Below are positions 28-60,272 of a DNA stretch of 64,000 nucleotides, piece by piece. The notes under the pieces were generated by a model. That model was given only the letters and a program-made list of their open reading frames with translations. It was not told where the DNA came from and searched no databases. Source of the stretch: Chiloscyllium plagiosum (taxonomy: Eukaryota); the NCBI RefSeq assembly GCF_004010195.1, contig NC_057719.1:40934969-40998968 (forward strand). The letters run 5' to 3'. Position numbers and translations under genes: made by a program. Numbering within the stretch: position 1 is the first letter of the stretch; each line of letters starts with the position of its first letter.

Positions 28-234
28 AAGTTAAAAGATCACACAACACCAGGTTATAGTCCAACAGGTTTAATTGGAAGCACACTAGCTTTCGGAGCGC
101 CACTCCTTTATCAGGTGATGAAGGAGCAGCACTCCAAAAGCTAGTGTGCTTCCAATTAAACCTGTTGGACTATAACCTGGTGTTGTGTGATTTTTAACTT
201 TGTATACCCCAGTCAAACGCCAGCAACCCAAATC
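28..234. mobile_element. Penelope-like family A palindromic mini-insertion
   Basis: About 85-bp inverted arms centred near 117, then a unique tail. 14-bp TSD atgagatctgtgaa at 14-27 and 235-248. Same sequence as copies at 1287 and 54447; hammerhead cores degenerate. Confidence 0.8.
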
Positions 235-299
235 ATGAGATCTGTGAAGTCAATGTAGCTCACCAGAGCTGGTAATAATGTGCAAATGTAGTCGCTGCC

Positions 300-560
300 A
301 GTCAAGTCCCATTCAGCTGAGTTTGAACAAAATTATTAACACTGAGAAAGGATTGAAGGCAAGCTGACAGGCTTAGATGCAGAAAAAATGGTTTGGTGAG
401 AATTTAATATGGAGCTGAGATGAGACAATACATTCAAGGACTTGAGGAACAAAGCAAGTTTAAAATTGGGTGGTGTTGAAGAAGATGATGTGACAAGTGG
501 AGACTTTTTGAGGACAACAGTTTTTAAAAATACAAGAAATGGTATCTGGTCAATGAAGAA
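300..560 (-). mobile_element. Highly degenerate L2-like LINE fragment
   Basis: Minus strand resembles the L2 RT-proximal PISNLPFLSKVLE region; very diverged. Confidence 0.35.
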
Positions 561-1145
561 GCCAACAATGAGTTAATTATTAATCATGAGTTTCTTCAGT
601 TGGAATGTAATAAATCCCTTTAGGCTCCACAAACCCAAATTACATATCAAGAGAATCATTGTTGTGAATATCTGTGGAGGTAGTCCTGCTCAATTGCTTA
701 ATTTTAGTCAAAGATCTATAGCAAGACTGGAAAAGAGAATCTGTGGGTCTTAGTTACAATGGATGAACAGAGAACCATATTGGGAATTCAGCTTCCTGTG
801 TATCAAAGTCAACTTTTTTTCCCAATTCTTCTGCAGATCTGTTCTCCTGTTCTTTGCTTGCATTAGTGGATTGGTGATGAAGAAGGAATGAGGGAAGACT
901 GGATTACTGTGATTGAGATCTAGAGGCAGCACATGAAAGGATTTGGAAATAATTTTGCTTTAGCTGTGTTTAAAGTCAATGAATTAAGTGATTAGAGAAT
1001 AAATTAAGGAATTGGGTTTTGTTTATTGTAGGCATATAAATAAGCAGTAATCTGTACTTATCATATGAGAGAGTTACAAATGTAACTAAACATGGGGGAG
1101 ATACAACTGGTGGCTACACAACTGTTATGGCCCAGTGTTCTAGGT

Positions 1146-1208
1146 AGGGTGGTGCTGGAAAAGCACAGCAGGTCAGCCAGCAGCTGAGGATTAGGAAAGT
1201 TGACTTTT
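1146..1208 (-). mobile_element. Penelope-like family B short fragment
   Basis: gtggtgctggaaaagcacagcaggtcag matches the reverse complement of the 9800-9855 tail. Confidence 0.65.
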
Positions 1209-1286
1209 GCTTAGTTGTGAAATAAGGATTGTGGGCAAAAGTAACAATTATTAATCAAGATTAGCAAGAGTCCAGTCACCTAAATA

Positions 1287-1529
1287 ATCACCTAACAGAT
1301 GAAAGGCTTAACAGACAATCAATTTTTCAATGTATAATTTCAGTTACATCACACTGTAAATTTTTGTTATAAATTCTGTGTGTTAGGATTGAGCCCTCCA
1401 CTACCACCTGATGAAGGAGCGACGCTCCGAAAGCTAGTGTGCTTCCAATTAAACCTGTTGGACTATAACCTGGTGTTGTGTGATTTTTAACTTTGTACAC
1501 CCCAGTCCAACACCGGCATCTCCAAATCA
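1287..1529 (+). mobile_element. Penelope-like family A 3' end, single arm
   Basis: 10-bp TSD cacctaaata at 1277-1286 and 1530-1539. Contains the intact hammerhead motif and the same tail (ctccaaatca) as the 28 and 54447 copies. Confidence 0.8.
1404..1441 (+). ncRNA. Minimal type I hammerhead ribozyme motif (PLE family A)
   Basis: cac-CTGATGA(1408-1414)-A-GGAGC gac GCTCC-GAAA(1429-1432)-GC-TA-gtg. Stem I cac/gtg, 5-bp stem II, palindromic AGCT in place of stem III. Confidence 0.72.
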
Positions 1530-4138
1530 CACCTAAATATGAGTCAATTGGAAGTAAAAACCAGTTGGGGTAGTATTTGTGAAACATGCGTATGACAAGG
1601 GCAGGGTTATCCATCTCTGGAACAATAAATGAACAGCTTTAATAAGAACAATCTGTTTAAACATACAGCACTTTGCAAATGCGTTGTTTATACAACTTCT
1701 CCTTTGAAAGGTTACTAAATTAAAAAGTTCAAGGGCCAGATTTTTTTTTGTGTCCGTCAACATTCCAGCAAAACTGAGACAAGGCTTAGAGGCATATCCT
1801 GCTCCCTTCCATTTCACAATGGGAGTACAATGGATTGTCTAAAATACATTATCCCCATGTTTGTGGGCAAAGCAACTTTAAATAAGAGAATTGTTGTCCT
1901 AAACTTATTTTTCAGCAGTTACCTGACTTAATGCTGGATGTAAGGAGTTAGTTAGGTCTCAGTGTTTAGTCGTTCATGGAGATTTCCTTCAATGTTGTTC
2001 AGCTAATTAAATAATTCTCAACCCTATCAACAGTGAGAAAAATTTTGACCAGAAAATAACTTCAAGTAGAAATTCCTTTCCTTCTTCTGTTCTGCCTGAT
2101 CCAGTCAGTTGAAATTCCTCAGCAAAGATCAGAGATATCTCCAATACTGCAATCAAATTACCCTGCAACTAGACGTTTGGTGAGGGTTAGAGGCATCTTT
2201 GTGGTGGGATGACTGCCAAGCAGAAAATCCAGGTCTAAAGGTTCAATATTTTTGTGAGGACTTGAAGTTCCATTAATATTTTCCAGTGTTTGTGCTGCCA
2301 GTAATTTTCTCTCAGTGGAAATGAAGAGAGAACAGGAAGTTTACAAACAAAATATTGTGATCTGCTATAAGATTTATCAAATATCAGTCTTTGCTGTATT
2401 AAAGCAATTTTCAAGATTGTGTGCACAGATCCAGCCACAGAGGGCAGAGGTCTTTGGCACCACCATGTTCGGGATTGGAGGCAGGTGAAGGCATGGAAAT
2501 ACCAGCGCCAGTTTGTGTGTCAGTTTGGTGACTTTCTGTTGTCAGCCATTTTGGGCCAGCTTCAGGGTGCAGAGGGCTACCTGCACCATGAGGCAGTGAA
2601 CCAATGAGATTCATTAAAAGCCTTGTAGAAGGCCCTATAAAGAGGACACCTGAAAAAAACCCAGTATGCCTGGAGTTTTACAACACAATATGGGGGCTGT
2701 TCAACTGCTTGGTGGAATCACTGATTCAGCTAGGCTCACAAGTTTAATTGTGTCCAGGTGTAAGTGCAGGCAAAGCAGATCCTGTTCGAGGATCTCCTCC
2801 ACTCTACCACATCACACTCCACCTCCATGTTCCACATTGATGGGGAGTGGCTGCTTAGTTATTAGATATTTTAAAATGCTGCTGAGCATATTTGTTCATG
2901 TCAAATTTCCCTCTTGGTTATTTCCCCTTTACAGATACCTTCCACTTCTCTTGAGCTGGATGGCCATGAGAACCAGCTTTGAGAACTAGCTGTTTATTGG
3001 ACATGAAACAGGTCCCCAGGCCAACTCCATGAAAATCCCAGCTCAGTGACTATTTCTTCCTGCAGTGGATTTCAAACCCAGAAGTTCCAACTTCTATTTC
3101 CTGCCCTCAACTCAAAATGTCAGTTGAAGAGTGTTCTGTTGCTTTGCTTAGACTGTTCATCCAGTTTGAAAACTCTGTGGGCTAAACCCTCAGCTTCTCA
3201 CAGAAGATTGTTTTTCCAACTAAAACTGTTACTAATATTCTGATCGCCACAGAAATGGATACATTTTAAAAAGAGACTTAACTTCCAGTTATCAGCTAAA
3301 GGAATGATGAAAGAAGATTTCACATTATTAAATTTAATTTTACAAAATGCCTGAAAGCGCTATTGAGTCAATCCTATTTTTGTTTTGTAGGCAACTTACA
3401 CCTTAAACCTCAAAGTAATGTTCCACTTTTATACTTAACACCTAATTCACTCTCTACAGAATTACAGTCCTTTTAATAAACTGTCCACAATTGTTCCCAG
3501 CTGCCAATGGGTTCCCTTGTGCCTGTTTTGTAGACTAATAACTTTAAGAGAACATTTTCAGGTGCTTTCCTCAGTTCTTAGACAGTTCCTTAAGTCTATC
3601 AACAGTAGTAAAGTCTGTTCTGATGATTCTTTTTCCCCTGAGGTAAATGTCCTTGAATCAGTACAGGCTAGACAGATTCTCTCTTCAATTAGAAACCATT
3701 TCCCTTCTGTGTGTAGCTGTGGTAGCTTGCATAGCTCAGTAGGCTTCCTTTTGACTGACCACAGGACTGCTACTTGTCAGTGACATCCCTTGATTTATAG
3801 AGAAACCTATAACCTGATCTCAAAAAGGCTTCATCTGCCATCTTCATCATGTCATGTGCATTTTGCAAAGTCATCTGCCCAAATAAATCAGCAGATGCCT
3901 CCACCCATGTCTGATATTATTGTTAAACAGGATATGCATGGATGAGACCAAATGGGACAAGACTGATCTTTGTGAATTTGCTTGGATAGCCAGGGTATCC
4001 CCTTTGGAGATCAGGTACTCTGTTGGATATAATTCTGGGAAACATTTGGTAAAGGTTAGATTTCCTTTGAGAGAAGAAAGTTGCCATTTGGGATTTTAAA
4101 AAGTTGGTAAGATGGTGCGTAGTGCATAACCACATTGG

Positions 4139-7019: not shown

Positions 7020-8332
7020 GAAAGGCAGAAGGAAACAATGCAGAGCGCAGATCAAAAGTTAGAAAAATAAAATAAAATTGGGTGACAGGATCACATGCAA
7101 AAGACAGGGCAATTGCTAAATTCTAAAGGGACAATAAGTGTAAGGGGCACTTTATCTAAATGCCCATAGTATTCAAAACAAAGTTGATGAACTTGTGCAA
7201 ATCAGAGAGGAGTATGATTTAGTTGCCATTACAGAAACGTGATTGCAGGGTGGTGATGACTGGGAATTAAATATCCAAGGGTATCAGGTAATTAGGAAGG
7301 ATGCAGGAAGGTAAGGGAGGTGGGGTTGTGCTCATAATTAAATTTGAGATTAGGACTATAGGGAGACAATATAGGATCTAAGGAGCAACATGTTGAATCC
7401 ATTTGAGTGGAAATCAGGAATAATAATAGGAAGAAGTCACTGATGGGAGTAGTCTATAGGCCACCCAATTATAATGCTGCAGTGGGACAGGCAATCAATC
7501 AAGAAATATCTGACGCATGTAAGAATGGAACGGTAATAGTCATGGGGGACTTTAAAATGCACGTTGATTGGCCGGATCAAGTCGGTAGAAGCAGTCTTGA
7601 AGAGGAGTTCACAGAACTCATCCATGATAACTTTCTTGAACAGCATGTTACCAAACCTAATAGGGAGCGTGCAATCTTGGATCTGGTCCTGTGTAGTGAG
7701 ACAGGTAAAATTAATTATCTCGTTGTTAGGATCCTCTCAGAAAGAGTGACCACAGTATGATCAAATTTGTGATACAAATGGAGGGTGAAATAGTATCATC
7801 TAAAACCAGGGTGTTATGCTTAAACAAGGGAGACTATAATGGGATGAGGAAGGAGTTGGCTAAATTAGACTGGGAATACAAATTATATGGTGGAACAGTT
7901 GAGGAACAGTGGATAACTTTCAAAGAGATTTTTCACAGTGCTTAAGGTAAGTATGTTCCAGTCAAAAACAAGAATAACAAGGGTAGGAGGAGCCAGCCTT
8001 TGATAGCCAAGGACGTTAAAAAGCAACAAAGAACCTCAAATTAAACAATAAAGAAAAAAAAAATAGATTCTGGATGCAAACTAGCATAGAATATAAAAAC
8101 AAGTTGGAAAAGTTTTTATAAATATATAAAACAGAAAGGGTACCTAAAGTGGACGTAGGTCCCTTGCAGGATGAAAAAGGGGAATTAATTTTGGTCATGC
8201 TGAAACAGCCGAGGCCTTTAATAACTGTTTTGTATCAGTGTTCGCAATGGAAGATGTGTCTAACATGCCGAAGAATGATGTTAAGGACACGATGGGAGGT
8301 GAGGACCTCAATTCAATAGTTATCACTAAAGG
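7020..8332 (+). mobile_element. CR1 LINE ORF2 5' part (APE endonuclease), degenerate; interrupted by a PLE
   Basis: YLNAHSI, AITET, GVVYRPPN, VMGDF and AILDLVL motifs across frameshifts; continues at 9899. Confidence 0.9.
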
Positions 8333-8789
8333 ATAGTATCTTCACCATGGATATCCAATCCCTCTACACCTCCATCCGCCATGACCAGGGGCTCCAAGCC
8401 CTCCATTTCTCCCTCTCCCGATGTCCCCAACAGTACCCTTCCACCGACACTCTCATTAGTTTGGCTGAACTGGTCCTCACTCTTAACAATTTCTCCTTCG
8501 AATCCTCCCACTTCCTCCAGATCAAAGGGGTAGCCATGGGCACCTGTATGGGCCCCAGCTATGTCTGTCTCTTTGTTGGCTACGTAAAACAGTCCATCTT
8601 CTGTAGTTACACCTGCACCACTCCCCACCTCTTCCTCCGCTACATTGATGACTGCATTGGCGCCACCTCATGCTCCCGTGAGGAGGTTGAGCAATTCATC
8701 AACTTCACCAACACATTCCACCCTGACCTTAAATTTACCTGGACCATCTCTGACACCTCCCTCCCCTTCCTGGACCTCTCCAACTCCAT

Positions 8790-9745
8790 NNNNNNNNNNN
8801 NNNNNNNNNNNNNNNNNNNNNNNNNNNNNNNNNNNNNNNNNNNNNNNNNNNNNNNNNNNNNNNNNNNNNNNNNNNNNNNNNNNNNNNNNNNNNNNNNNNN
8901 NNNNNNNNNNNNNNNNNNNNNNNNNNNNNNNNNNNNNNNNNNNNNNNNNNNNNNNNNNNNNNNNNNNNNNNNNNNNNNNNNNNNNNNNNNNNNNNNNNNN
9001 NNNNNNNNNNNNNNNNNNNNNNNNNNNNNNNNNNNNNNNNNNNNNNNNNNNNNNNNNNNNNNNNNNNNNNNNNNNNNNNNNNNNNNNNNNNNNNNNNNNN
9101 NNNNNNNNNNNNNNNNNNNNNNNNNNNNNNNNNNNNNNNNNNNNNNNNNNNNNNNNNNNNNNNNNNNNNNNNNNNNNNNNNNNNNNNNNNNNNNNNNNNN
9201 NNNNNNNNNNNNNNNNNNNNNNNNNNNNNNNNNNNNNNNNNNNNNNNNNNNNNNNNNNNNNNNNNNNNNNNNNNNNNNNNNNNNNNNNNNNNNNNNNNNN
9301 NNNNNNNNNNNNNNNNNNNNNNNNNNNNNNNNNNNNNNNNNNNNNNNNNNNNNNNNNNNNNNNNNNNNNNNNNNNNNNNNNNNNNNNNNNNNNNNNNNNN
9401 NNNNNNNNNNNNNNNNNNNNNNNNNNNNNNNNNNNNNNNNNNNNNNNNNNNNNNNNNNNNNNNNNNNNNNNNNNNNNNNNNNNNNNNNNNNNNNNNNNNN
9501 NNNNNNNNNNNNNNNNNNNNNNNNNNNNNNNNNNNNNNNNNNNNNNNNNNNNNNNNNNNNNNNNNNNNNNNNNNNNNNNNNNNNNNNNNNNNNNNNNNNN
9601 NNNNNNNNNNNNNNNNNNNNNNNNNNNNNNNNNNNNNNNNNNNNNNNNNNNNNNNNNNNNNNNNNNNNNNNNNNNNNNNNNNNNNNNNNNNNNNNNNNNN
9701 NNNNNNNNNNNNNNNNNNNNNNNNNNNNNNNNNNNNNNNNNNNNN
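8790..9745. other. Assembly gap (956 N)
   Basis: Run of n. Confidence 1.
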
Positions 9746-9763
9746 CCTGCAGGCACTCTGCCT

Positions 9764-9803
9764 CTATTCCTGATGAAGGGCTTTTGCCCGAAACATCGAT
9801 TTT
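9764..9803 (+). ncRNA. Minimal hammerhead ribozyme motif (PLE family B)
   Basis: CTGATGA(9770-9776)-A-GGGC tttt GCCC-GAAA-C-ATC-gat. Other copies have GAAACGTC, so ATC looks like CpG decay. Confidence 0.68.
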
Positions 9804-9898
9804 CCTGCTTCTCGGATGCTGCCTGAACTGCTGTGCTTTTCCAGCACCACTCTAATATTGAATCTGGTTTCCAGCATCTGCAGTCCTTGTTTTTACCT

Positions 9899-11260
9899 AG
9901 GGTTGGAATTGAGCCAACTTGAGGGTCTAAAGGTAGATAAGTCCTCTGGTCCTGATGGAATGCATCCCAGGGTGCTGATAGAAATGGCGGAAATTATAGT
10001 GGATGCGTTAGTAGTAATTTATCAAAATTCAGTGGACTCTGGGCAGGTCCCAGTGGACTGGAAGACAGCGAATGTCACACCACTGTTTAAAAAAGGGTGT
10101 AGGCAAAAGGCAGGCAGCGCAGCTATAGGACAGTTAACTTAATATCTGTAGTTGGGGAAATGCTGGAGGCTATCATTAAAGAAGAAATTCTGTGACGTCT
10201 GGATGGAAAGGGCTCCATCAGGCAGATGCAGCATGGATTCAGGAAGGGAAGGTCTTGTTTGACAAACTTACTGAAGTTCTTTGTGTATGTAACAAGCATG
10301 TGGATGGAGGGGAACAGTTGGATGTTGTGTACTTGGATTTCCAGAAGGCGTTCGATAAGGGGCCACATAAAAAACTCATCCATAAGGTAAGAATACATGG
10401 AGTTGCGGAGAATGTACTAGCATGGGTAGAGGACTGGCAAACCAATAGAAAGCAGAGAGTTGGAATAAATGGGTGTTTCTCTGATTGGAGATCAGTGGTG
10501 AGCGGGGTGCCAGAGGGGTCAGTGTTGGACTCACAAATGTTTGTGATAAATAAATGATTTAGAAGAGGAGGCTGAGTGTAATGTATCCAAGTTGGTTGAT
10601 GACACTAACTTGAGTGGAAAGGCAGACAGTGCAGAGGATGTGGAGGGTCTGCAGAGAGATTTAGATAGGTTAAGTGAGTGGGCAACAGGCTGGAGATAGA
10701 GTATAATGCTGGTAAATGTGAGGTTATCCACTTTGTAAGTAAAAACAGTAGGTCAAAGTATTATTTAAATGGTGAAAGATTGCAGCATGCCATTGTGCAG
10801 AGGGACCTAGGAGTGCTCAAACACGAATCGCTAAGAGTTGATTTGCAGGTGCAACAGGTAATCAGGAATGCAAATGGAATATTGGCTTTCATTGCTAGAA
10901 GGATAGAATTTAGGAGAGCAGGGAGGGATAGATAAGATAGAGGCAGGCAAGTTGTTTCCACTGGTGGCTGAGACTAGGACTCGGAGACATGGCATCACGA
11001 TTAGGCGGAGTAGATTTAGAACAGAGATGAGAAGGAACTGCTTCTCTCAGAGAGTAATGGATCTGTGGAATTCTCTGCCCAAGGAAGCAGTTGAGGTAGC
11101 TTCATTAAGTATATTCAAGACACAGTTGGATAGATTTTTGCATGGTAGGGGAATTATGGGTTATGGGGATAATGCAGGTAGGAGAAACTGAGATGATGGA
11201 TAGATCAGCCATGATCTTAATGGGCCAAATGGCCTACTCCTGATTCTATTACTATGCTAC
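9899..11260 (+). mobile_element. CR1 LINE ORF2 RT and 3' end (continuation of 7020-8332)
   Basis: KSSGPDGMHPRVL, DWKTANVTPLFKKG, YLDFQKAFDK, SGVPEGSVL and FSQRVMDLWNSLP; internal deletion near 10915. Confidence 0.92.
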
Positions 11261-17340: not shown

Positions 17341-18144
17341 GATCAACAGTAACTGACATATCTGGCAATATTTGGGGGAAAAAGGTAACTGTGTAAAAGA
17401 CTTTTCAAGTTCTATGGGGTAGATTTCAAACACATTATTCCATTATAATATCAATTGGCCATTATAAAACTGGCCAATTTTCTGTTCCATTTCTAGACTT
17501 TAATTAGGCTTTTATTATGGCATTGACCTCCAGCACTAAGCCTCAAAGCTACCCTGAAAATTTTCAGGATGAATTAGAGGACAACAGGTGCATTTCTGCC
17601 AGCAATCTGTCTTGTGCTTCTGCAAACTTTAGTCTTGTTCTGTTTTTAGGAGAGGTGGCAGAGGCTGAATCAGATAAGAAAACCAACCTAGTGTCCTCCT
17701 GTAATTACTTCTGTAATTCATAGCACAGTTATCTCCATTCTCAGGGACTCCAGACCATTTTCTGGGTCATACTCACCAACGGATTTGAGGAGATCTTTAC
17801 AGCTTACTTGAATCTCCTTCCAACTGTCACACTCATACCAGATTCCAACTGAGGGGTATGATCTCCCAGCATGGTGAACCCTGACTGCATACCTGCTTGT
17901 ACAGGGACATCAAGATGGTGAACTCTGGAAGCTATAACTAGAAACTGGTGGAATGGCCAAAGAATATCAGAAATTACAGAAATGGAACAGAAAATTGACC
18001 AGTTTTATAATGGCCAACTGATCTATTGAATTGGTATTACAATGGAATAATGTGTTTGAAATCTATCCCCTAGAACTTGAAAAACCTTTTACACAGTTAT
18101 CTTTTTTTCCCAATTATTGCCAGATATGTCTGTTACTGTTGATC
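17341..18144. repeat. Long inverted repeat: arms 17341-17494 and 17978-18144, spacer 483 nt
   Basis: The arms are reverse complements with scattered substitutions and one indel of about 13 nt. Confidence 0.9.
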
Positions 18145-19890: not shown

Positions 19891-20599
19891 CTTGATTAAA
19901 TTTCTTGTAACCCAGTGCCATATGTCAGCAAGTTGGAGTAGTTCTGAGTTGTTGAAATTAGCTCCATACCAGGCCAGATGATGTGATTCCAGTGCTTTTG
20001 GCAGTCAAGCTCTTCAAACAAAAATGTTTTCTAGATTGCTCTGTCACAGACAGATTCAAAACACAGTTTGATAAGATGATGTTAATGAATTGATTGTATA
20101 GACTTTTTAAAACTGAGCAACACTTTTAGTTAGAATAACAAACAATGGCAGTTCGAAATTAGTGTTTGTGGGTTAAGTCGTTACGTTTGATCAGATCAAT
20201 CACAGATAACAACATCTCTGAAAATGTCCTTATATTATTCCATCCATAATCTCTTCCATATCACAACCTATCTCCACCTGTACACATTCCTGAAGAAAGC
20301 TACAACCAACTCACAACTGCATTTTCAAAGTCTTTGCCGTGCTGTTCACAGCAACATTTCTGTATTCGTTTTTTTTTAATCGCAGACTCATTCCATCTTT
20401 AATACCCGAGTCCCCGATGAAACCATTAGATTCTCCTTCTGTTTCTCTCTGTCTATGTCTGGCTGTTCCCTTTAATGTGGTCTTTTTAGACACTCTCTTC
20501 AGTTCAAGAGATGCAGATTAAAATGGATATGGGGAATAACTAGTTTTGTCATTCACCACCAATTCATCTGAGTCACATAGAAGGGGGGGGGGGGGCAGT

Positions 20600-20639
20600 A
20601 AAATCGACGTTTCAGGCAAAAGCCCTTCATCAGGAATTC
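20600..20639 (-). ncRNA. Minimal hammerhead ribozyme motif
   Basis: Minus strand reads gaattc-CTGATGA-A-GGGC tttt GCCT-GAAA-C-GTC-gatttt (canonical GUC triplet). Confidence 0.68.
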
Positions 20640-20673
20640 CTGATGAAAGGCTTTTGCCCGAAACGTTGATTTT
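20634..20673 (+). ncRNA. Hammerhead ribozyme motif, mildly degenerate
   Basis: CTGATGA(20640-20646)-A-AGGC tttt GCCC-GAAA-C-GTT. The first stem II pair is mismatched. Confidence 0.5.
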
Positions 20674-20779
20674 ACTGCTCCTCGGATGCTGCCTGAACGG
20701 CTGTGCTTTTCCAGCACTACTCTAATCTAGACTCTGGTTTCCAGCATCTGCAGTCATTGTTTTTACCTCACATAAAAGA

Positions 20780-25909: not shown

Positions 25910-26103
25910 GTACTCAGCGCCGTCGGCTGATTCCAGCCCCTCTGCCTGACACTTCATCCTTGGGACGAAAGCCAGTGGGCACCACTGGGCAGTGGGTGGA
26001 CCTGCCACCTCTGCCAGGCACCCTGAAGGAGTCATTTGAAATTAAGGTTTACGAGATTGACGATGTGGAACGGTTACAGAGACACAGGCAGGAGGAAAAT
26101 GAG
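25910..26103 (+). CDS. KIF26A: Kinesin-like protein KIF26A, internal coding exon (C-terminal region; upstream exons lie outside the window)
   Basis: Acceptor ttattttag at 25909 and donor gtcagt at 26104. Encodes [80 protein letters not shown] is the KIF26 signature as I recall it; QWVDLPP favours KIF26A over KIF26B (recalled as RWVDGP). Confidence 0.92.
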
Positions 26104-26601
26104 GTCAGTACATTTAGTACAACAAGTTTAGACAATCTAAATTATGGTATCAGTGAGGAATGGCTGCTTAAATAGAGACAGAGCACAATTACATCCAGGA
26201 GATTGACTGCAATTAAATTACTATAATTATTAATTTTACAACGCATATGTTGGAGTGCCCTTACAAAGAGGAGATAAAAATAATTACTATTCACAATTAA
26301 TCATGCTTAGCCAGGAGAGATGGTATAAGTGAAGAAAATCTATGAATATATTATGAATGAACCTTTACAGTCTTTGGCTGCTATATCAAACTTTATAGCC
26401 ATTCTATGCCAGGATCATTAACTCCTTTCCAGATGAAAAAAGGTGTGCTCTTTGAAATTATAATACATCAGCAGTATTATAATCTGATTTGTTCCCAATT
26501 AACTAAGGATTATGCACAATACCCATGAACATTTTTTCTACAGAATTCATCATCCTAACTTTTTCTCCTTTCCTTTTCATTCTTTGTCATTAATGTTATA
26601 G

Positions 26602-27599: not shown

Positions 27600-29070
27600 A
27601 GTCCCAAGCATCCTTGACCAGTGTTGTGAGGATGCACCAGAGATTGAATAGGGATCGAGGACCCTTATCGCTGACATGCCAGATTATCTAGGCTCAACTA
27701 ACAGTAATAGTTCTTGTTACGGTAAGGGGTTGCTCTGGGCGTCCTCAGATAAAACCTTGGTGTTGGTGATGTTGCAGTAAGACGTGAAGGTGTCATTGGT
27801 GCCTAAAGATAAGTTGAGGTGAGAGTGACCACTCTTGGCAACAAGGCTGCATTTGACCAAGTGTGGCAACAAGGAATCATCACAAAATTGCACTCAGTAG
27901 GAATTGGGAGGAGGCTCTCTGCTAGTTGGAGTTATACTTAATACAAAGAAGGATGATTGTGATTTGAACTCCAAGACATGCCTGTAGACTTCCTCGGGGT
28001 AGTTTCCTTGGCCCAACCATCTTAGCTACTTCATCACCTTTAGTACTTCCCTGCCACATAAGGTCAGAAGTAGGGATATTCACCAATGATTGCACCATGT
28101 GTTCAGCACCATTCGCGACTGCTCAGATACTGAAGCAGTCTGTGCCTAAGTACAGCAGGACCTGGGCTGACAAGTTACAAGGAACATCAAAAGTGCCTGG
28201 CAAAGACAGTGAATTGAGTCATTACCTCTTGACATTCAATGACATTACTATTCCCAAGGCTCCTCACCAAAAACAGTTTGGGGTTTATCAGTGACCGAAA
28301 AGTACAACAACAGGTCAGAAGGTTGGAATCCTGCACCAAGTAACTCATCTCCTGATTCCCCAAAGCCTGTCCAGGATCTAAAAGACATAAATCAGGAGTG
28401 TGATGAACTACTTTCTACCTTGGATGAGTGCAGTTCCAGTAGCACTCAAGGTAGGAGCAAATTACTGCAGATGCTGGAGTTTGTTCTGACAACAAAAAAT
28501 GGTGGAAATCACAGTGAGTCAGGCGGCATCAAAGCATTGAGCTCTGATGAAGAGTCATCTCGGACTCAAAGTGTTAGCTTGTTGTCCCTCCATGGATGCT
28601 GTTGTGATTTCCAGTATTTTTTGTTTGCAATCCAGTTGCACTCAAGAAGCTTGCACCATAAAGGACAAAACAGCCCAATTGATTTACACCATATCAAAAA
28701 AGATTCACTCCCATCATCACTGATAGAGTGTAGCAGCAAGGTTGCATTGAAATTTACTAAGACTCCTTAGACAGCAGTTTCTAAACCCATGAATACAACC
28801 ATCTCAAAGGACAAGACAAACAGATACATAAGAATACCACCACCTGCAAATTCCCCTTCAAACTACTCACCATCCTGGAAGTATGTAGCTATTCCTTCAG
28901 TGTTACTTATTCAAAGTCCTAGTACTTCCTCCCTAAAGGTGTTGTGGATCTACCCACATCCCCAAATAGACTGCAAAAGTTGAAGAAGGCAGCTTATCCC
29001 CACTTTCTCAAGGGCATCTAGGGATGGACAATACCCTGTCAGTGATGCCCATGTCCCTTGAATGATTAAA
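27600..29070 (+). mobile_element. Ancient LINE (AAFDxVW-type RT; CR1/L2-group) relic with 3' tail
   Basis: KAAFDQVWQQG near 27843 and degenerate PQGS and FADD regions; tail ctcaagggcatctagggatggacaata. Interrupted by a PLE at 28451. Confidence 0.65.
28451..28630. mobile_element. Penelope-like family C palindromic mini-insertion
   Basis: Imperfect inverted arms. 16-bp TSD tccagt(a/t)gcactcaag at 28435-28450 and 28631-28646. Degenerate hammerhead CTGATGA(28544-28550)-A-GAGTC atctcg GACTC with GAAA mutated. Confidence 0.75.
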
Positions 29071-29254: not shown

Positions 29255-29450
29255 GGAGAAAGTGAGGGCTGCAGATGCTGGAGATCAGAGCTGAAAATGT
29301 GTTGCTGGAAAAGCGCAGCAGGTCAGGCAGCATCCAAGGAACAGGACAATCGACGTTTCGGGCAGAAGGGCTTATGCCCGAAACGTCGATTCTCCTGTTC
29401 CTTGGATGCTGCCTGACCTGCTGCGCTTTTCCAGCAACGCATTTTCAGCT
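29255..29450. mobile_element. Penelope-like family B palindromic mini-insertion
   Basis: About 78-bp near-perfect inverted arms. 16-bp TSD ctacca(a/t)tgtgattgg at 29241-29256 and 29449-29464. CTGATGA core is missing at the centre. Confidence 0.85.
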
Positions 29451-33649: not shown

Positions 33650-34800
33650 CTAGTGTTGGATTGTAGTTGGTGTGTGTGGCCTGCATGGGAAATTGTAACT
33701 GGTGGTGTTCTTCTGCATCTATTTCCTGTGTTGTTCTAGGTGGTAGAGCTTGTAGATTTTGACAGTGCTGTTACAGGAGGCATAGTGAGTTCCTGCAATG
33801 CATCTTGTATTTGCTATACACTGCTATCACAGTATGCCAAAAATAAAGACAGTGAATGTTCACAGCGGTGGATGGGATGCTCAGTGCTCAGCTAATGCCT
33901 GCAGAATTCTGAGCTTCATATCTTCTCTTTTAGGTATTTGGTCCAATTCATTTTGTGGGAGAAAGTGAGGACTGCAGATGCTGGAGATCAGAGCTGAAAA
34001 TGTGTTGCTGGAAAAGCGCAGCAGGTCAGGCAGCATCCAAGGAACAGGAGAATCGACGTTTCGGGCATAAGCCCTTCTGCCCAAAACGTCGATTCTCCTG
34101 TTCCTTGGATGCTGCCTGACCTGCTGCGCTTTTCCAGCAACACATTTCCAATTCATTTTGTGGTCAATGGTAACCTCCCAGATGTTGATGGGGGAAGTTC
34201 AGTGATAGTAGTGCCAATGAGTGTTAAGGGGTGATGGTTAGATTATCTTGTGGAGATTATCATTGCCTGGCAGTTATGTGGTGCAAATGTTATTTGCCAT
34301 TTGTCAGCTCAGGTTTGAATGTTGTCCATGTCATGCTACCTATAAACAAGGACTACTTCAGATTTTGATAAACATTAAATGGCACATAACTATTGAAAGA
34401 GAGAAAGACAGTATAGGTCTTCTGCCAATCACAAGTATATACTTGCAGCTTGGAGATATAAGCATGTTATGATATGATTGGATATTTAATCACACATTAG
34501 TTTGAATGACAGATGGAAGGCCATTGATGAAACAACTGAAGATGTTTGGGACTAAGACATTATCATGTAGGGCTCCTGTAGCAATATCCAAAGTACCTTC
34601 AGTAATCACAACCATCTTTCTCTGTGCTCGGCACAAGTCCTTCAGATGGAGAGTATCATCCCCTCACCACCCGAGTACTTAATTAAGTATTTTGCAAGAG
34701 CTCCTAGATGCTATACTCAGGCAAGTTATTCCCTGATGTCAAGGGCAGGCACTCACATTGCCTCTGGAATTCAGCTCAATTGTCTATGATTAGACTAAGG
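33650..34800 (-). mobile_element. Ancient LINE relic (same type as 27600-29070)
   Basis: Degenerate reverse-complement similarity to the 27.8-29 kb element; hosts the PLE at 33957. Confidence 0.5.
33957..34147. mobile_element. Penelope-like family B palindromic mini-insertion
   Basis: About 70-bp inverted arms; perfect 17-bp TSD tccaattcattttgtgg at 33942-33958 and 34147-34163. Confidence 0.88.
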
Positions 34801-51827: not shown

Positions 51828-52270
51828 GTTTTATTCATCCATTGGATGTGGATATCACAGATTAGGCCAGCATTTATTTTCCTTCCATAGTTGCCCAGAG
51901 ACAGTCAAGAGTCAACCAAATTGCTGTGGGTCACATGTGTGCCAGATCACGCAAGGACAGGAGATAGGTGAAAGTGGGTACTGCAGATGCTGGAGATTAG
52001 AGTCAAGCCTAGAGTAGTGCTGGAAAAGCACAGCAGGTCAAGCAGCATCGGAAGAGCAGGAAAATTGACGTTTCAGGCCAAAGCCTTAATCAGGAATGAG
52101 GGAGACATCCTTCCCTAAAGGACAATAGTAGGGCAGATGGGTTTTTCCAACATTCAACAGTGGTTTCATGGTCATCATTAAACTCTTACTTCCAGATTAT
52201 TGTGAATTCAAATTCTACCATTTGCCTTGGTCAGATTTGGACCCAAGTTCCTAGAACATTACCTGGGTCA
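51828..52270 (-). mobile_element. Second SINE family copy, interrupted by a PLE fragment
   Basis: Same tail, core and head as 48590-48920. Confidence 0.7.
51967..52099 (-). mobile_element. Penelope-like family B single arm
   Basis: actgcagatgctggagatt...gctggaaaagcacagcaggtc...ttgacgtttcaggccaaagccttaatcaggaat. Ends just beyond a degenerate hammerhead core. Confidence 0.8.
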
Positions 52271-52428
52271 CAGTCTAGGAGCTTGGGTTTGAACCCGCAA
52301 GACATATAGTACAATTTGAATTCAATAACGAAAGAAAATCTGGAACAAACAGTCAAACGGAATCAGCATTCTCTACTTCTGTACTCTATTCTCAACACAG
52401 TAAAGTGAAACAATTGAAGACCTCCAAT

Positions 52429-53367: not shown

Positions 53368-53476
53368 AAGCAACACTTACTCACTTAGTAACCCACTTAC
53401 TGATATTCAGTTTGGGGTCTAATGTGAGCCATTCGGTTCAGATCTTGTTGAAGCCTTGGTCTGGCCATTGACAAAA

Positions 53477-53602
53477 ATGAGGTTAAAATCAACTAGGAGT
53501 ACGTGAGGACTTCCTAACAAAGAGCCCTTGCCCGAAATGTTAATTCTCCTGCTCCTCAGATGCTGCCTAATCTGTTGTGCTTTTCCAGCACTACACTATC
53601 GA
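53477..53602 (+). mobile_element. Penelope-like family B degenerate insertion
   Basis: gcccgaaatgttaattctcctgctcctcagatgctgcc; 11-bp TSD cattgacaaaa at 53466-53476 and 53603-53613. Confidence 0.75.
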
Positions 53603-53629
53603 CATTGACAAAAGCGTTGAATTCCAGAA

Positions 53630-54000: not shown

Positions 54001-54446
54001 AAGTGAATAAGCTGCAGAATTGCTCTGTTCCTGTGAGAGACATGATTCTGGCCCAACAGTTGCTGTCAAGCGGATGGTGGATGCTCTTCAGTAACACCAA
54101 GTGCCACCAGGAGTGATGTCCCCTGTTTGGACTCCATGCTGCCTTTGGGAAATGGTGAAAGTGGTCAGAAAGGTGCCACCAAGAGGAGATGAGGGATTGG
54201 TGAGAGCAGAAAGATGTTACTGTGAAGGTGGCTTTTGTCAGCAGGGCACCCTCACCCCCAGCCCATGGCTCTGACTGTCTAATTGTTCAGGTCCAACCAA
54301 GCAAACAGAATGCTTGCCATTCTCCACAGGTGGCAGAGGGCCCATGCATCATTGGTAAAAGCCAATAATGGCAGAAATATGCCTTTAATTGGTCACGTGA
54401 GGTTTTCAATTTGTCTCTGTGTGACATCCATATTGGCAAAATACAA

Positions 54447-54660
54447 AGTTAAAAATCACACAACACCAGGTTATAGTCCAACAGGTTTAATTGGAAGCAC
54501 ACTAGCTTTCGGAGCGACGCTCCTTTTTAGACAATCACCTGATGAAGGAGCGTCGCTCCGAAAGCTAGTGTGCTTCCAATTAAACCTGTTGGACTATAAC
54601 CTGGTGTTGTGTGATTTTTAACTTTGTACATCCCAGTCCAACACCGGCATCTCCAAATCA
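54447..54660. mobile_element. Penelope-like family A palindromic mini-insertion (best preserved)
   Basis: About 80-bp essentially perfect inverted arms; 13-bp TSD tggcaaaatacaa at 54434-54446 and 54661-54673. Confidence 0.88.
54536..54572 (+). ncRNA. Minimal hammerhead ribozyme motif (PLE family A)
   Basis: cac-CTGATGA(54539-54545)-A-GGAGC gtc GCTCC-GAAA(54560-54563)-GC-TA-gtg. Confidence 0.72.
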
Positions 54661-55296: not shown

Positions 55297-58200
55297 ACCA
55301 AGCTGGGACAACTTGTAAAATGGCAGTGGGATTTGTGCCCCAGGTGGATGGGGAAGGTGGGGGGTTTTTTAATAGGCACTCAACAACCCAGAAAGTGCCC
55401 TGGCTCCATGCAGCATTTACCTCCTTCCTCCACCAAGAAGCTTCGGGAGATGCAACACTGTCTACTTTTTAAAATTAACTTGTTCAGATGGGTTTTGACA
55501 TAGCTCTGGACCAGGTGGGACTTGAAACCAGGCCTTCTACTCTAGAGGTAGAGACACTACAACCGCATCTCAAGATCCCTGAGGTCACTGTCTTCAACAA
55601 TTAGCTGCTATTGATGAAATACTGCCCAGGAACTAGCTGCCAATCTAATTGAGCTTGGGCTCCATTTCCTCATACTTGCAGCATATCTCACCTTTTAGTT
55701 AAGATTTTGGCCTCTGAGTTGGAAAGTTCACATAGCCACTTGCTTTTAATATCAAATATGTTCAAGGCTATATATAAAGAGCACATGCTGGCTTTTTCTT
55801 TTGAGCTGTTCTGCTGTGTTTCCACTTTGCTATGCATAAGTGGCTACTTTCAGGAATGATCAATAAATAGCCTGATATAACTTACTCTCTGTTCTTTAAG
55901 TTAACGGATGGACGTTTTATAAGGTACCTGTAAGCTGTTTGTGTTGATTGAATTATACAAGAGCACTTTGAGGCTTTTCTTGTACTTTTGAGATTGTCGT
56001 CATTTAGTTTGAACATGATTACTGAGATTCCCTTTTTCTAAAAGCTTTGTATATCAGGTGGTCATTTACAAGCTGCTGTGTAGAAAGACAAAGACAAGCC
56101 TCTCTCTAATTTGAGAATGCATCATGTAACCATGAAATACACAAGAGAATACACTAATAATGATATCATGAATCATAATAAAAATGTAATAACTTGTACA
56201 TTTACATAAGAGCTACTCATGTGTTACTGCTGTGGTCACAGTTTGCATCTCAGCAGTGGTTGACATTGAGTTCTGTTGGCTCCCTGTACGATTATCCTTG
56301 TCACTTGTCAGCCAGGTGGCTGGGAAACACAGTTGACACAAGTGGGTATAACCACCTAAAAGGAATACTAACATTTGACCCTCTCTCTCTTGTAACAAGT
56401 GAGCCTCCTGTTAACTCAAAAAAGAGTTGCTACAAGAATTAGCTGAGAAAAGTCTAGCTTGTAAAATAATATTATTTTGTCACATGATTTTGCAAATGAT
56501 TTGCGACCTGGGTGGAGACTAGGAGAAAATAATTTTAAAAAGAAACAAATAGGAATGACTTTGAAAAAGGATAATTCAGGTCAGGTAAATGTTTTAATTA
56601 TCAATAGAGATGCAATGTCCTTGCCAATTTCAATACAAATTGTCTCAAAGAAAATCACCTGTGAAGTTATGAGAAAATCCAACAGTAATGATACAAAGTT
56701 CTATTCTATTCAGATTGGTAACAGATTTATCATTTAAAAATGCAATTCAAAATAATAAATTTTAAAGCACATGAAGTCTCAACCTACCCAAATGACTGTT
56801 ACTAGCCTTTGGTAAACATAATCATCAGCACCAAAATGTTATTCATGAAGTAGACCTAAAGGATTCTAAGTACCCTAACTCCATGAGTCAAGGACTACAA
56901 AATTCACAAACTAACTACTCTCATGCGTTTATCATCTGATCTTGACATGTTTGACATGCGTAAAAGCTTGATTTTATTTTGCAATTGGTGTCAGCTGCAT
57001 ATTAATCTTTCTTTGATTATAGTACAGTACAAGCTAATTGTTAAAACTAGATACAGTATTACAATACTAATCAATTCTTAGCTTGTTATTACTATATCAG
57101 TTATCTTGACTGACAACTAAGGAGGTGCTGGTACAATTTTCTTGGCAATATGATTATTTCAAAATGACTGTCTATTCTTAATATTTTAGAATTTTATGGA
57201 TCTTGATGTTTCAAACAAGAAAGGGTGTGTTTTTGCTTGATATAGACAATATTTATTCATTGCATTTCAAAGAAATCATATTTAATGATAACGTTCAGGA
57301 GAAATTGATTAACTTAATTTCCATGGGTTTAGTTTTTGTGATATCAATGTAACGTAACATCATGATATCTGCAACATAAATATTTATGGCAATATATTAC
57401 ATACACAAACAATCTTCAGAGTTACTTTGTAAATGTAATGATGCTTTCATGTGGGGACATCACTAAAGTGTTGTATTTGTTGACAAGTCAACTGAAATTA
57501 AAGGATGCTTTTCAGCAGTTAAACCTATTTTAAAGAGTTGAAATGACCGTATTCAGGACTGATACGGGAACCACCCCATTTTCTGTAGGTGAGAGAACAG
57601 ATTAACCTACTAGTAGCAAAAGGGAAGAAATGTTGATCTGATCATTGACCTTGTTTTGAAGTTTGCAAGACACATAAATTAAAATAATATCAGGTACATA
57701 AATTGCATTTTAGAATTCATTGTTGGAAGATAGCTGATAAGGAAGCACATCAGAGTTCACTGAAAGACAGTAGTTTCTATAGGATGTTAGCTACACTCTT
57801 TTACACTACCCATGTGCATTTACTTTAACTAGTACCCAATTCCATCATGTATCTAGTTTAACAGATGGCATAAACTAATGAAAGGACCTTTTTTAATTAG
57901 TCCGTCTAAAGATATTTATCACGTTGGAGGTCTTTCCCAATAAAGTTTCATTGACCAGGTTTGGGGCTGTCAGCTTCCAGCAGTCACCATCTGCTTAGTG
58001 GCAGAAACGGGCTGCTAGAACAGTCTCTGCATTTCCACTTCACTGAGCTGGAAATGGGTTTGAAGTTGTATTTTTCTCATCATCTTGGAAAATCGTGAAT
58101 TATGTCCATGGCACCAATTTTACAAGTGGATATTTTTTATTATTCGCTTGGACAGAAAATTGGGTCTAATGATTGCAGTAGTCCTTCGTTGTAACTTTTT

Positions 58201-60073
58201 TCTGATGAATTACACATCAGTAGGCACTTCTCGTAAATAGGCAGTTAATAAAAAAAAGTCATAAAAACACTTTGTACTTTACTACATTGTGCTTTTGTTT
58301 GATTCTGCATCCAATGTAAGAATCTGACTATGTCTGTCATGCTTTTACTGTTCATAATTTTATCTACTGTCAAAGAATTTTAATGATTTTTTAAAAACAT
58401 TGCCATTACATAGTTGCACTGAAAAGCGTAATGCATCCACAACTTGCATTTTATAACACATTTAATATCCTAAGGTGTTTCAGATGAGCTTTATATGACT
58501 ACATTTGATATCAAGCCATCAGATGCAAATCAAAACTAAAGTAAATGATACATATACAAGGCATATGGTTTATTCTCCATAATGATACATCTAAGTTACA
58601 GTCTGCAGACCATCAGTTTAAAAAAAATGCTTAGATTGACTCACAACGCACCCAATTATTTTTGAAAGAGAGCTAGAGGTAGTGAGAATAAAGTAGATTA
58701 CTTAGGCAAAGTACACTGGATAATCAGCAAAAGTGAGTAAAAGATTTAGTTTTCAGTTCATTTTTAACAAATAACAGTGAAAGTTGAAGTAAATCCAAAT
58801 GTACTAACCCTTTAGTTAAAGGGTTAAAATTGTTAAAAGATCCCTGGATGAGGGATGGCCATGATACAAAGTATTGATTGCAAATCAGTAATCTGCATCA
58901 AGTTTGCATGCAATGCTCATTTCAGAGAAACTGAATTCATTACCTAGTTGCTGTATATCTTTCATAGTTTTGCAGCAGTAAATAAGAGCTTAAAAATTAT
59001 TTTAAAATCTCCCTTTTTAATTCCTTGTTTTTCTATTTTACATTTCTGACAGCCATCAATAACTTCAAGGCAACAAAAACAATAGATTTCTGCCATGTTC
59101 TAGTTTTATCACTGCTCTGCAGTGTATTGCTTCTTATACTGTTGTTATATTGCCAACTGCTGCCGGATTTATACCAGTATCAGCATGAATCCATCAGCAA
59201 ATTGGAAGTGTAACGATAGGGTAAGCCGATTCTCCCTGAATCAATGTCCTATTATGTTGCCTGTCAACACTAGGAAAACAGTTTGAGTGCTCATCCATGT
59301 TATGGTGCCTTCGGTGTAGTAGGTGGAATTGGCGTAATGTCAATGCGCTTTCAGCTCAGTTACCAGCAGAAGGCCTATCCCACTGGCTGGTAGACCCAAG
59401 TGGTGATTATAGTGAAGATGGAAATCTGTTGTATGTGTTTGAGCCCTGTTCACTGTTCTGAGATTTGTATGCTTACACCTGTTGGGCTCTTCAACTTGCA
59501 GATGAAGCTCCAACTCACAATAAATATAACTTGGATGCAAAGGAGGTGCCATGTAATTTGTGTTTAGTTTAACAACAACTCAATGTAGCAAATAATCAAC
59601 TTTCAGGTCATTTTAGACCATTGTCCTGGGCTATTTTTGAAATTTAACTATTTTTCTAAGAACATGGGACTACAACCGGGTTAAAGGTTGTTTTATGATA
59701 AATCAGATTTTTGGAAGTATGTACACAGGTAAAATACATTTCTATTTGTTTATTGCAAAACATTGAAATAGAGTTCAGGGCTGAAAATTTAAAGTGTTAT
59801 AACCTGAAGTGCAGTTCAGTTAAATGTAATTACTCTCCAAATACTGCAGCTCATTTAGCAGCTCAAGTACTTGTGTGAAATTTGTGCTAACAAAACACAA
59901 CTTCTGCAGCACCTTAACAGCTGATCTTTTTTAAGCAATAGAGAGTAATTTCAAATCTATTAACAAATTTTATTAAGAAGGTATAATTTCAACCCAAAAA
60001 GCATAATTAGACATAATTTTGTATTATTGGCTGTTAAAAATGTTTTTGACAATTTGTCAGTACTGTATTAAAT

Positions 60074-60272
60074 GAGCTGAAAATGTGTTGCTGGAAAAGC
60101 GCAGCAGGTCAGGCAGCATCCAAGGAACAGGAGAATCGACGTTTCGGGCTTCTTCGGGCTCATGCCCGAAACGTCGATTCTCCTGTTCCCTGGATGCTGC
60201 CTGACTTGCTGCGCTTTTCCAGCAACACATTTTCAGCTCTGATCTCCAGCATCTGCAGTCCTCACGTTCTCC
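60074..60272. mobile_element. Penelope-like family B palindromic mini-insertion
   Basis: About 77-bp inverted arms; 15-bp TSD ctgtattaa(a/g)tgagc at 60063-60077 and 60272-60286. Confidence 0.88.

What the first reader, a model, noticed from the sequence alone, without database searches (positions are those of the whole stretch)
28..60272. Three families of hammerhead-bearing Penelope-like mini-elements, about 12 copies in 64 kb
Seen: family A (28, 1287, 54447), family B (1146, 8336-9898, 20596, 29255, 33957, 51967, 53477, 60074) and family C (28451) differ in sequence. Where the core survives, all three show CTGATGA + an extra A + hairpin, followed in A and B by GAAA and a self-complementary tetramer (AGCT or ACGT). 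Stem II differs between families (GGAGC/GCTCC, GGGC/GCCC, GAGTC/GACTC) yet stays paired, which is covariation visible inside this window. Established: PLEs carry minimal type I hammerheads in their pseudo-LTRs, thought to work as dimers, so the class is known. Inference: this genome has a dense population of non-coding ribozyme-bearing PLE derivatives from at least three lineages. I cannot tell whether these particular families are described.
Basis: partly seen in the sequence, partly recalled or inferred. Interest (0 to 1): 0.72.

Follow-up and report, generated by a model that had tools for sequence, protein, structure and literature searches.

The report
Penelope retrotransposon run-off stubs with hammerheads
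These twelve short repeats are real, very common end pieces of protein-coding Penelope-like jumping genes that carry an already described minimal ribozyme motif, and their fixed ends suggest they are likely dead-end DNA copies of the first 90-130 letters of the element's uncut RNA, which would make them a readable record of how this poorly understood class copies itself.

Summary
All 12 copies exist, but only 4 keep a complete hammerhead core. The motif is the published minimal hammerhead of Penelope-like elements; helices I and II covary across five lineages. The copies are not a non-coding class: families A, B and C are all pseudo-LTR ends of coding elements. Density here (190 per Mb) equals that of a 1.16-Mb genome sample. 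In that sample 63 of 67 foldbacks join one long and one short arm, and 35 of 67 have target duplications. Arm 5' ends pile up about 30 nt behind a TATA-like box (A -8, B -4), not at the predicted cut. Best reading: both target nicks prime cDNAs that run off the RNA's 5' end (inferred). This scan reached that reading before, in this and other genomes. Not found in my look-up of its notes: family A's pseudo-LTR holds a used poly(A) site (592 of 2,067 RNA reads; no genomic A-run), giving an LTR-like layout. Cleavage and the start site are untested. Known class; moderate mechanistic interest.

The parts
27..236 (.). Family A foldback: short arm (-5 to +87, minus strand) and long arm (+1 to +121, plus strand), numbered from the C of CUGA; both cores damaged; 18-nt target duplication
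1145..1208 (-). Decayed family B fragment (+21 to +81), no core
1292..1529 (+). Family A solo copy (-114 to +122) with intact hammerhead; 10-nt target duplication
1368..1373 (+). TATAAA box of the family A pseudo-LTR; RNA start predicted at the A near 1400 (-8)
   Evidence: sequence; boundary inferred from other copies
1405..1439 (+). Minimal type I hammerhead motif: helix I CAC/GUG, CUGAUGA, extra A, 5-bp helix II, GAAA-GCUA, predicted cut after 1436
1448..1468 (+). ATTAAA signal (1448-1453) and poly(A) site (about 1466-1468), used by family A copies in RNA reads; which loci the reads come from is not known
8336..9898 (+). 5'-truncated coding family B1 element: RT frame from 8344, an unread run of N, then pseudo-LTR with hammerhead at 9770 (tetramer ACAT) and long 3' end
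20596..20768 (.). Family B1 foldback with a perfect palindromic centre; minus-strand core at 20633 intact, plus-strand core at 20640 with a mismatch in the first helix II pair; long arm starts at -4; target duplication about 14 nt
28452..28632 (.). Old family C foldback; plus arm starts at -4, core at 28544 has lost the G of GAAA; 16-nt target duplication
29255..29450 (.). Family B2 foldback (arms +11 to +125 and +4 to +91), no complete core, 16-nt target duplication
33958..34147 (.). Family B2 foldback (arms +4 to +125 and +11 to +85), no complete core, 17-nt target duplication
51966..52105 (-). Older family B solo arm (-9 to +124), core mutated
53506..53598 (+). Older family B solo arm ending at +85, core decayed
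54442..54660 (.). Young family A foldback: short arm (+6 to +90), long arm (-8 to +122) with intact core at 54539; 13-nt target duplication; predicted near-perfect hairpin of -161.9 kcal/mol
60074..60272 (.). Family B2 foldback (arms +16 to +92 and +8 to +125), no complete core, 15-nt target duplication

Best explanation
The copies are pseudo-LTR end pieces of coding Penelope-like retrotransposons, likely made when the element's reverse transcriptase primes at both nicks of a staggered target cut and each short cDNA runs off the 5' end of the uncut RNA, a few bases in front of the hammerhead. Shown: attachment to RT/GIY-YIG frames; two fixed 3' ends about 35-38 nt apart; one long plus one short arm per foldback; 12-18-nt target duplications; a sharp 5' boundary at -8 (A) and -4 (B). 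Inferred: the boundary is a TATA-directed RNA start; the two 3' ends are the two internal RT start sites shown in vitro for the anole element; the two cDNA ends are joined by microhomology, giving the head-to-head foldback; a cDNA that jumps to another part of the RNA instead gives the partial tandems. The hammerhead is conserved in the source elements and merely carried along in the stubs. It likely acts on a minority of source transcripts, with protein help, and is not needed to make the stubs.
For: ORF link: B1 has RT, a CxxxxCxxC linker and a GIY-YIG-type region; A has the same linker and endonuclease, ending 674 nt before the core (atlas best hit 0.97, GIY-YIG in 27% of that cluster); C has endonuclease remnants upstream in 2 of 8 arms with native upstream sequence. 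Arm pairing: 63 of 67 foldbacks are long plus short. The arm reaching furthest 5' is the long one in 31 and the short one in 31, with 2 ties. Target duplications of 10 nt or more: 35 of 67 against 0 of 191 control pairs. Boundary in B: 58 of the 103 arms that reach position 0 stop at -5..0 (0.094 per nt against 0.003-0.009 upstream of -10 and downstream of +10), 35 of 186 at -4/-3. Boundary in A: in 37 further arms, 4 at -8/-9, one scored -14, none from -15 to -74. The boundary lies 30-33 nt behind TATAAA (A, -38), TTTATC/CTTATC-type boxes (B, -37/-35) and CATAAA (C, about -35). A fourth family (E) with TATAAA at -50 was predicted to stop near -20, and 2 of 38 arms stop at -19/-20. In B2 copies that contain the ORF start, 11 of 26 upstream repeats begin at -8..+11, and at least 7 visible rows jump from ORF sequence straight into a repeat beginning at -3..-6 (my count). 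No excess of ends at the predicted cut: 0.0076 per nt at +23..33 against 0.0064 and 0.0087 beside it. PMC11167929 (parts 1-2 of 4 read): two internal RT start sites define the tail, both strands are cut and extended, uncut RNA is the main template, and the ribozyme needs protein.
Against: No RNA start was observed: poly(A) single-cell reads gave no place where many molecules begin on either reference, and 93-95% of reads run on into unrelated sequence. The extra G expected from copying a cap is inconclusive: 15 of 28 boundary arms, but 9 of 20 in B where only A or G could be scored, and 14 of 35 B arms ending further downstream also have G. The B boxes are poor TATA matches. Family E rests on 2 arms; most E arms run far upstream. 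32 of 186 B arms and 10 of 39 A arms pass the boundary by more than 60 nt, so a second route is needed. The two arms of one insertion share private variants more often than arms of different insertions (B2 0.017 against 0.003 per nt), which fits one RNA copied twice but also snap-back synthesis or later conversion. Drosophila Penelope uses an internal, TATA-less promoter with its start 46 nt before an intron (PMC2377424, passages). The sample is 1.16 Mb, 200 kb of it next to the window, and one duplicated insertion is counted twice among the 67.
Confidence: 0.7

Rival explanations
1. Self-priming (snap-back): one cDNA, or an antisense template as proposed in PMC3846280, folds back at the junction and copies itself to make the inverted arm.
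For: Junctions often overlap by 1-5 nt of microhomology; arms of one insertion share private variants; published hypothesis (PMC3846280, passages).
Against: A strand copied from the first cDNA cannot be longer at its 3' end than that cDNA, so the long arm should always reach furthest 5'; observed 31 against 31. 9 of 23 flush or overlapping junctions would need a loop under 3 nt, and 20596 has a perfect palindromic centre.
Confidence: 0.12
2. The 5' boundary is set by the hammerhead itself, through cleavage or RT stalling at the folded ribozyme, not by an RNA start.
For: In A, B and C the boundary lies within 8 nt of the core; in B3 and C helix I begins exactly at the boundary base; a few arms begin at +25..+30.
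Against: No excess of ends at the predicted cut. RT meets the ribozyme from its 3' side, so stalling predicts stops near +31, not -4. The offset changes between families with the TATA-like box (-8, -4, about -20). RNA depth is continuous across the predicted cut in family A reads.
Confidence: 0.1
3. One reading: separate non-coding, hammerhead-dependent mini-elements (retrozyme- or MITE-like) that are transcribed and spread as units.
For: Hundreds of thousands of short copies; the B2 junction +2/-3 recurs in 4 of the 67 pairs and +9/-1 in 3; foldback junctions appear in RNA reads (15 and 16 reads).
Against: Most centres differ between copies of one subfamily, in both orientations of long and short arm. 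8 of 12 window copies lack an intact core. Stubs that start at the boundary lack the TATA-like box. No head-to-tail arrays in the window. Each family's upstream sequence leads into an ORF.
Confidence: 0.06

Closest known systems
Minimal hammerheads (min-HHR) in pseudo-LTRs of metazoan Penelope-like elements (Cervera and De la Pena 2014, PMC4209133; parts 1-2 of 4 read)
   Same: Core, extra base between positions 9 and 10.1, G10.1-C11.1 pair, palindromic 15.2-16.2, short helix I, many covarying families, mostly truncated single copies, some pairs on opposite strands 100-700 bp apart; fishes, coelacanth and Xenopus named.
   Different: The parts read do not mention cartilaginous fish and do not map copy ends. 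Helix II here is 4-6 bp; helix I is only 2 Watson-Crick pairs next to the core in B1, B2 and B4.
EN+ Penelope-like insertion unit with inverted pseudo-LTR, one-sided 30-40-bp tail and target duplication (PMC3846280, PMC8557442; passages read)
   Same: Head-to-head inverted repeat, tail on one end, target duplication, partial tandems; a TATA box with an Inr-like sequence was noted in the pseudo-LTR of Pen2a_Av.
   Different: Here the unit is mostly reduced to two 80-130-nt arms, occurs at about 190 per Mb, has a fixed inner boundary, and has 12-18-nt duplications (8-10 bp in the rotifer cases). That paper explains the inversion by self-priming, which the 31:31 symmetry argues against.
PAc, the Poseidon element of the green anole (Frangieh et al. 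2024, PMC11167929; parts 1-2 of 4 read)
   Same: Two internal RT start sites that define the tail, both target strands cut and extended, uncut RNA as template, hammerhead close upstream of the start sites.
   Different: PAc is Poseidon-type and its ORF starts at stem II. A, B and C carry the Neptune/Nematis-type cysteine linker, and the B2 ORF starts after the tail. The parts read do not describe run-off at an RNA 5' end or how foldbacks form.
Non-LTR retrozymes (bioRxiv 10.64898/2026.07.22.740005; part 1 of 5 and passages read)
   Same: Non-coding sequence related to Penelope pseudo-LTRs, with type I hammerheads; one cartilaginous fish genome was positive.
   Different: Defined as head-to-tail arrays with a complete hammerhead in consecutive units; the window's copies are dispersed, head-to-head or solo, and mostly lack a complete core.
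LTR of LTR retrotransposons and retroviruses (U3-R-U5, minus-strand strong-stop DNA; recalled textbook knowledge)
   Same: Family A shows the order TATA box, inferred start, used poly(A) site, then RT start sites; short cDNAs appear to end at the RNA's 5' end.
   Different: Priming is at target DNA nicks, the enzyme pair is a Penelope RT with GIY-YIG, and strand transfer is not shown. No comparable poly(A) signal in B1, B2 or B4.

Membership tests
min-HHR of metazoan PLEs | CUGANGA / GAAA / UH core | tested here: met
   4 of 12 window copies; family consensuses A1, A2, B1-B4, E. C and D consensuses show CpG-type decay.
min-HHR of metazoan PLEs | Extra base between 9 and 10.1, and G10.1-C11.1 pair | tested here: met
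   Extra base in all consensuses; G-C pair in A, B, C, D; G-U in the E consensus
min-HHR of metazoan PLEs | Palindromic 15.1-16.1 tetramer, no monomer helix III | tested here: met
   AGCT (A) and ACGT (B, E); ATGT in the old families C and D
min-HHR of metazoan PLEs | Covariation of helices I and II across families | tested here: met
   Five lineages: helix I 14-15 of 15 pairs (permutation mean 7.4-7.6), helix II 20 of 20 (mean 12.6), the best of 120 permutations. D and E were found with a descriptor that required pairing.
min-HHR of metazoan PLEs | Located in the pseudo-LTR of a PLE | tested here: met
min-HHR of metazoan PLEs | Self-cleavage as dimer or with protein | not testable with these tools
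   RNA reads show no end at the cut, but a 30-nt 3' product would be lost in such a library
EN+ PLE, Neptune/Nematis type | PLE-type RT followed by C-terminal GIY-YIG endonuclease | tested here: met
   RVT_1 at E 2.9e-5, below the curated cutoff; frames; atlas hit for family A. Pfam found no family for the A fragment. For A and C only the endonuclease end was seen, not the RT core.
EN+ PLE, Neptune/Nematis type | CX2-5CXXC linker before the endonuclease | tested here: met
   Seen in B1 and A; decayed remnant in C; definition from PMC8557442
EN+ PLE, Neptune/Nematis type | Placement in the Neptune group by RT phylogeny | not tested
   No reference PLE proteins were at hand; Neptune rather than Nematis is not shown
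EN+ PLE insertion unit | Inverted pseudo-LTR, 30-40-bp tail at one end, target duplication | tested here: met
Non-LTR retrozyme | Head-to-tail repeats with a complete hammerhead in consecutive units | tested here: not met
   Window self-comparison shows none; the whole genome was not screened
True LTR (U3-R-U5) | Poly(A) site inside the repeat, downstream of the RNA start | tested here: inconclusive
   Site used in family A reads; the start is only inferred and the source loci are unknown; not seen for B2 among the listed loose ends
True LTR (U3-R-U5) | Homologous strand transfer from 5' R to 3' R | not testable with these tools
   5 of 26 B2 upstream repeats carry 50 nt or more from before the boundary, which fits transfer or read-through alike

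The most novel reading that the evidence does not exclude
The Penelope 'pseudo-LTR' works as a real LTR. In family A it holds, in order, TATA box, RNA start, hammerhead, a used poly(A) site and then the two RT start sites. A processed element RNA would therefore keep RT start sites only near its cap. Every copy would begin as a target-primed strong-stop cDNA; a jump to the repeated R region at the RNA's 3' end would rebuild the promoter and give long copies, a jump elsewhere would give partial tandems, and no jump would give these stubs and foldbacks. That would answer the open question of how pseudo-LTRs and tandems are regenerated.
Probability: 0.2. Interest if true: 0.78.

Novelty: new member of a known kind. 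Interest (0 to 1): 0.4.

Why it matters
The class, the ribozyme motif and the inverted-plus-tail layout are published, so the finding as worded is ordinary. Its value is as a large natural experiment. [quoted passage not shown] Several hundred thousand stubs with fixed ends give base-level predictions (RNA start, two RT starts, priming from both nicks, jumps from the RNA's 5' end) that CAGE data and the existing in vitro system can test directly. The foldbacks are also a large source of predicted hairpin RNA in host transcripts, and family A supplies working poly(A) sites.

Tried and rejected
Rfam: no match at gathering score; at E<=5 only generic hairpin models, no hammerhead. A DNA search of the genome with the family A end found nothing because common words are skipped; exact patterns were used for counts instead. 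Core against flank conservation among copies: core mismatches 21 of 898 (B) and 7 of 225 (A) against 228 of 4,200 and 60 of 1,088 in flanks; not used as proof of selection on copies, because only arms whose alignment crossed the core were scored and subfamily mixture inflates flank differences. Energy folding of two core copies did not return the dimeric hammerhead fold; such models do not score the core, so no weight was given. Cap-derived G: inconclusive. RNA runs: no listed holder is on record as RNA; run X20 gave 0 reads. Looking for the family A ORF start among 61 listed long-end flanks found no shared continuation. In one search the E2 pattern returned E1 again, so only the five-lineage tests are quoted. 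Pfam and PDB gave nothing significant for the family A endonuclease fragment. The host exon could not be named. Literature searches found no paper on these shark-type families, on run-off at the RNA start, or on a poly(A) site in a pseudo-LTR; the library lacks most subscription papers, and no supplements, Dfam or Repbase were seen. Rejected: MITE (ends asymmetric, long duplications, centre not fixed) and microRNA gene (Rfam hits are below cutoff and reflect the hairpin only).


Full report
Setting. The window is G000:C10:40934969-40998968 in a 3.56-Gb assembly, 39% G+C. That it is a shark-type genome rests on recall of similar repeats and on earlier scan notes, not on a test. Positions below are counted from the C of CUGA (0). 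Family labels A1, A2, B1-B4, C, D and E are mine.

The observation. All 12 copies are there. A minimal-hammerhead descriptor gives 4 window hits (1408+, 9770+, 54539+, 20633-) against 1 in total in 30 shuffles, and 51 hits in 771,130 bases of other G000 sequence against 0, 0, 0, 1 and 1 in five shuffles. Rfam does not detect them. Eight copies lack a complete core. Seven are head-to-head foldbacks, and eight have 10-18-nt target duplications. Across five lineages (A1, B, C, D, E) helix I pairs in 14-15 of 15 positions and helix II in 20 of 20, the best of all 120 permutations. Every feature matches the published minimal hammerhead of metazoan Penelope-like elements (PMC4209133).

What the copies are. 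Window 8344-8787 encodes part of a reverse transcriptase (Pfam RVT_1, E 2.9e-5, below cutoff) with 150 scored genomic relatives at 86-92% identity among 44,164 candidates. Those loci run RT, cysteine linker, GIY-YIG-type region, then the B1 hammerhead, often with an inverted end piece at the 5' side. Family A follows a linker-plus-endonuclease frame (atlas 0.97 to GIY-YIG-bearing clusters; no Pfam hit). Family C has endonuclease remnants upstream in 2 of 8 native arms and shares its tail with B. In B2 the tail continues into the ORF start. So these are pseudo-LTR pieces of coding elements with the Neptune/Nematis-type linker (PMC8557442). In 1,164,364 sampled bases outside the window there are 287 A and B arms forming 225 insertions, 193 per Mb; the window's 12 in 63 kb is average. 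Extrapolated, that is roughly 0.65 million insertions. Exact-word counts give floors of 15,504 and 72,990.

Fixed ends. Arms have two 3' ends, about +82..93 and +121..127. Of 67 foldbacks (62 in the sample, 5 in the window; one segmental duplicate counted twice), 63 join one long and one short arm, and 35 have a duplication of 10 nt or more against 0 of 191 controls. This is the published tail, which in the anole element equals the distance between two internal RT start sites (PMC11167929). The 5' ends were scored on 225 of 303 arms (identity 88% or more, not at a stretch edge, window excluded). In B, 20 end at -4 and 15 at -3 of 186, and 58 of 103 arms that reach 0 stop by -5; in A, 12 of 26 stop at -10..0. 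In 37 more A1 arms the edge is -8/-9, with none from -15 to -74. There is no excess at the predicted cut. The edge is an A about 30-33 nt behind a TATA-like box: TATAAA in A, weaker boxes in B, CATAAA in C; in B2-B4 it sits in TCATTC, an initiator-like word (consensus recalled). I predicted an edge near -20 for family E (note); 2 of 38 arms stop at -19/-20 and most run far upstream, which is weak support. In B2 copies chosen for holding the ORF start, 11 of 26 distinct upstream repeats begin at -8..+11, 5 carry 50 nt or more of upstream sequence, and at least 7 visible rows pass from ORF sequence directly into a repeat starting at -3..-6 (my count from an output that was partly cut).

Mechanism. 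Most likely the endonuclease makes a staggered cut, and RT primes at each nick, once at each start site in the 5' pseudo-LTR. Each cDNA reaches the RNA's 5' end after 90-130 nt, and the two ends are joined with small trims, microhomologies or inserts. The arm reaching furthest 5' is long in 31 pairs and short in 31, as expected for two independent cDNAs and not for snap-back from one; 9 of 23 flush junctions would need loops under 3 nt. Against this: no RNA start was seen, the cap-G test is inconclusive, and arms of one insertion share variants, which snap-back also predicts. In foldbacks the motif is predicted to be buried in a hairpin of -147 to -162 kcal/mol. Cleavage was not tested; published activity is low without protein.

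RNA evidence. Raw poly(A) single-cell reads (run X19, about 2% of the run, same species label as the best DNA holders; a contig of that organism matches 138 nt at the end and flank of window copy 1287 without a difference) cover the B2 repeat hundreds deep but its ORF start only 1-11 deep; 93% of 1,794 reads run on into unrelated sequence, as expected for host read-through. On family A, 265 plus 327 of 2,067 reads end in poly(A) at 1465/1468, 12-15 nt behind ATTAAA (AATAAA in A2); depth in that direction falls from about 800 to 229, is continuous across the predicted cut, and 284 reads continue upstream into native element sequence. The genome has no copy with an A-run at that site (0 matches), so the tail is added to the RNA. 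The reads may come from a few host transcripts that use the signal. B1, B2 and B4 have no such signal after the core; B3 has AATAAA at +76.

Comparison and novelty. The hammerhead, the inverted repeat with tail and target duplication, and the two RT starts are published. How tandems and pseudo-LTRs are regenerated is stated as open (PMC2377424; PMC8557442). My searches found no paper on run-off at the RNA start or on a pseudo-LTR poly(A) site; subscription papers, supplements, Dfam and Repbase were not seen, and supplements of PMC4209133 and PMC11167929 may bear on both points. This scan has noted the run-off and twin-priming reading many times, in this genome and others; those notes are not independent support. 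One look-up for the poly(A) and strand-transfer idea returned nothing. Papers seen: PMC4209133 and PMC11167929, parts 1-2 of 4; bioRxiv 10.64898/2026.07.22.740005, part 1 of 5 and passages; PMC8557442, PMC2377424, PMC3846280 and PMC12910113, passages only (the last had nothing relevant).

Verdict. Real, known class, wrongly framed as non-coding mini-element families. Interest 0.4, for the testable copying mechanism and the family A poly(A) site.

Noticed in passing
window 1448-1468: Family A pseudo-LTR carries a poly(A) signal that is used in RNA: 592 of 2,067 reads end in untemplated poly(A); no genomic A-run at that site. Source loci unknown.
   Followed up: partly
window 25911-26104 (+): Exon-like stretch between an AG and a GT, with an open frame of about 65 codons; it recalls the C-terminal part of KIF26-type kinesins (recalled, untested). 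Pfam and the atlas gave nothing useful. If so, the copies nearby are probably intronic.
   Followed up: partly
L095:4870-5000, L034, L100, L105, L060, L038: At least three more hammerhead-bearing families occur in the genome but not in the window: D (helix I GUU/AAC), E (CCA/UGG, extra U, also with two 3' ends) and an E-like family with GCA/UGC.
   Followed up: partly
L151-L180: Many B2 elements are miniature partial tandems: pseudo-LTR, 130-380 nt of the ORF start, then a jump back into a second pseudo-LTR.
   Followed up: partly
L161, L163, L176: Three loci on small contigs share one flank and a 5' end at +26, close to the predicted cut; probably one insertion duplicated.
   Followed up: no
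L170:1756-1767 and window 1412-1448: RNA reads cross foldback junctions (15 and 16 reads), so hairpin-forming copies are transcribed; many A>G and T>C differences were listed but cannot be told from copy variation.
   Followed up: no
window 17341-18144 and 52203-52324: Two further inverted repeats unrelated to these families (about 160-nt arms at 85% identity; a 120-nt imperfect palindrome) appear in the self-comparison.
   Followed up: no
window 7400-8335 and 9899-11100: The coding B1 copy sits inside a decayed LINE-like frame (read from translations; family name not tested); no target duplication was found for it.
   Followed up: no
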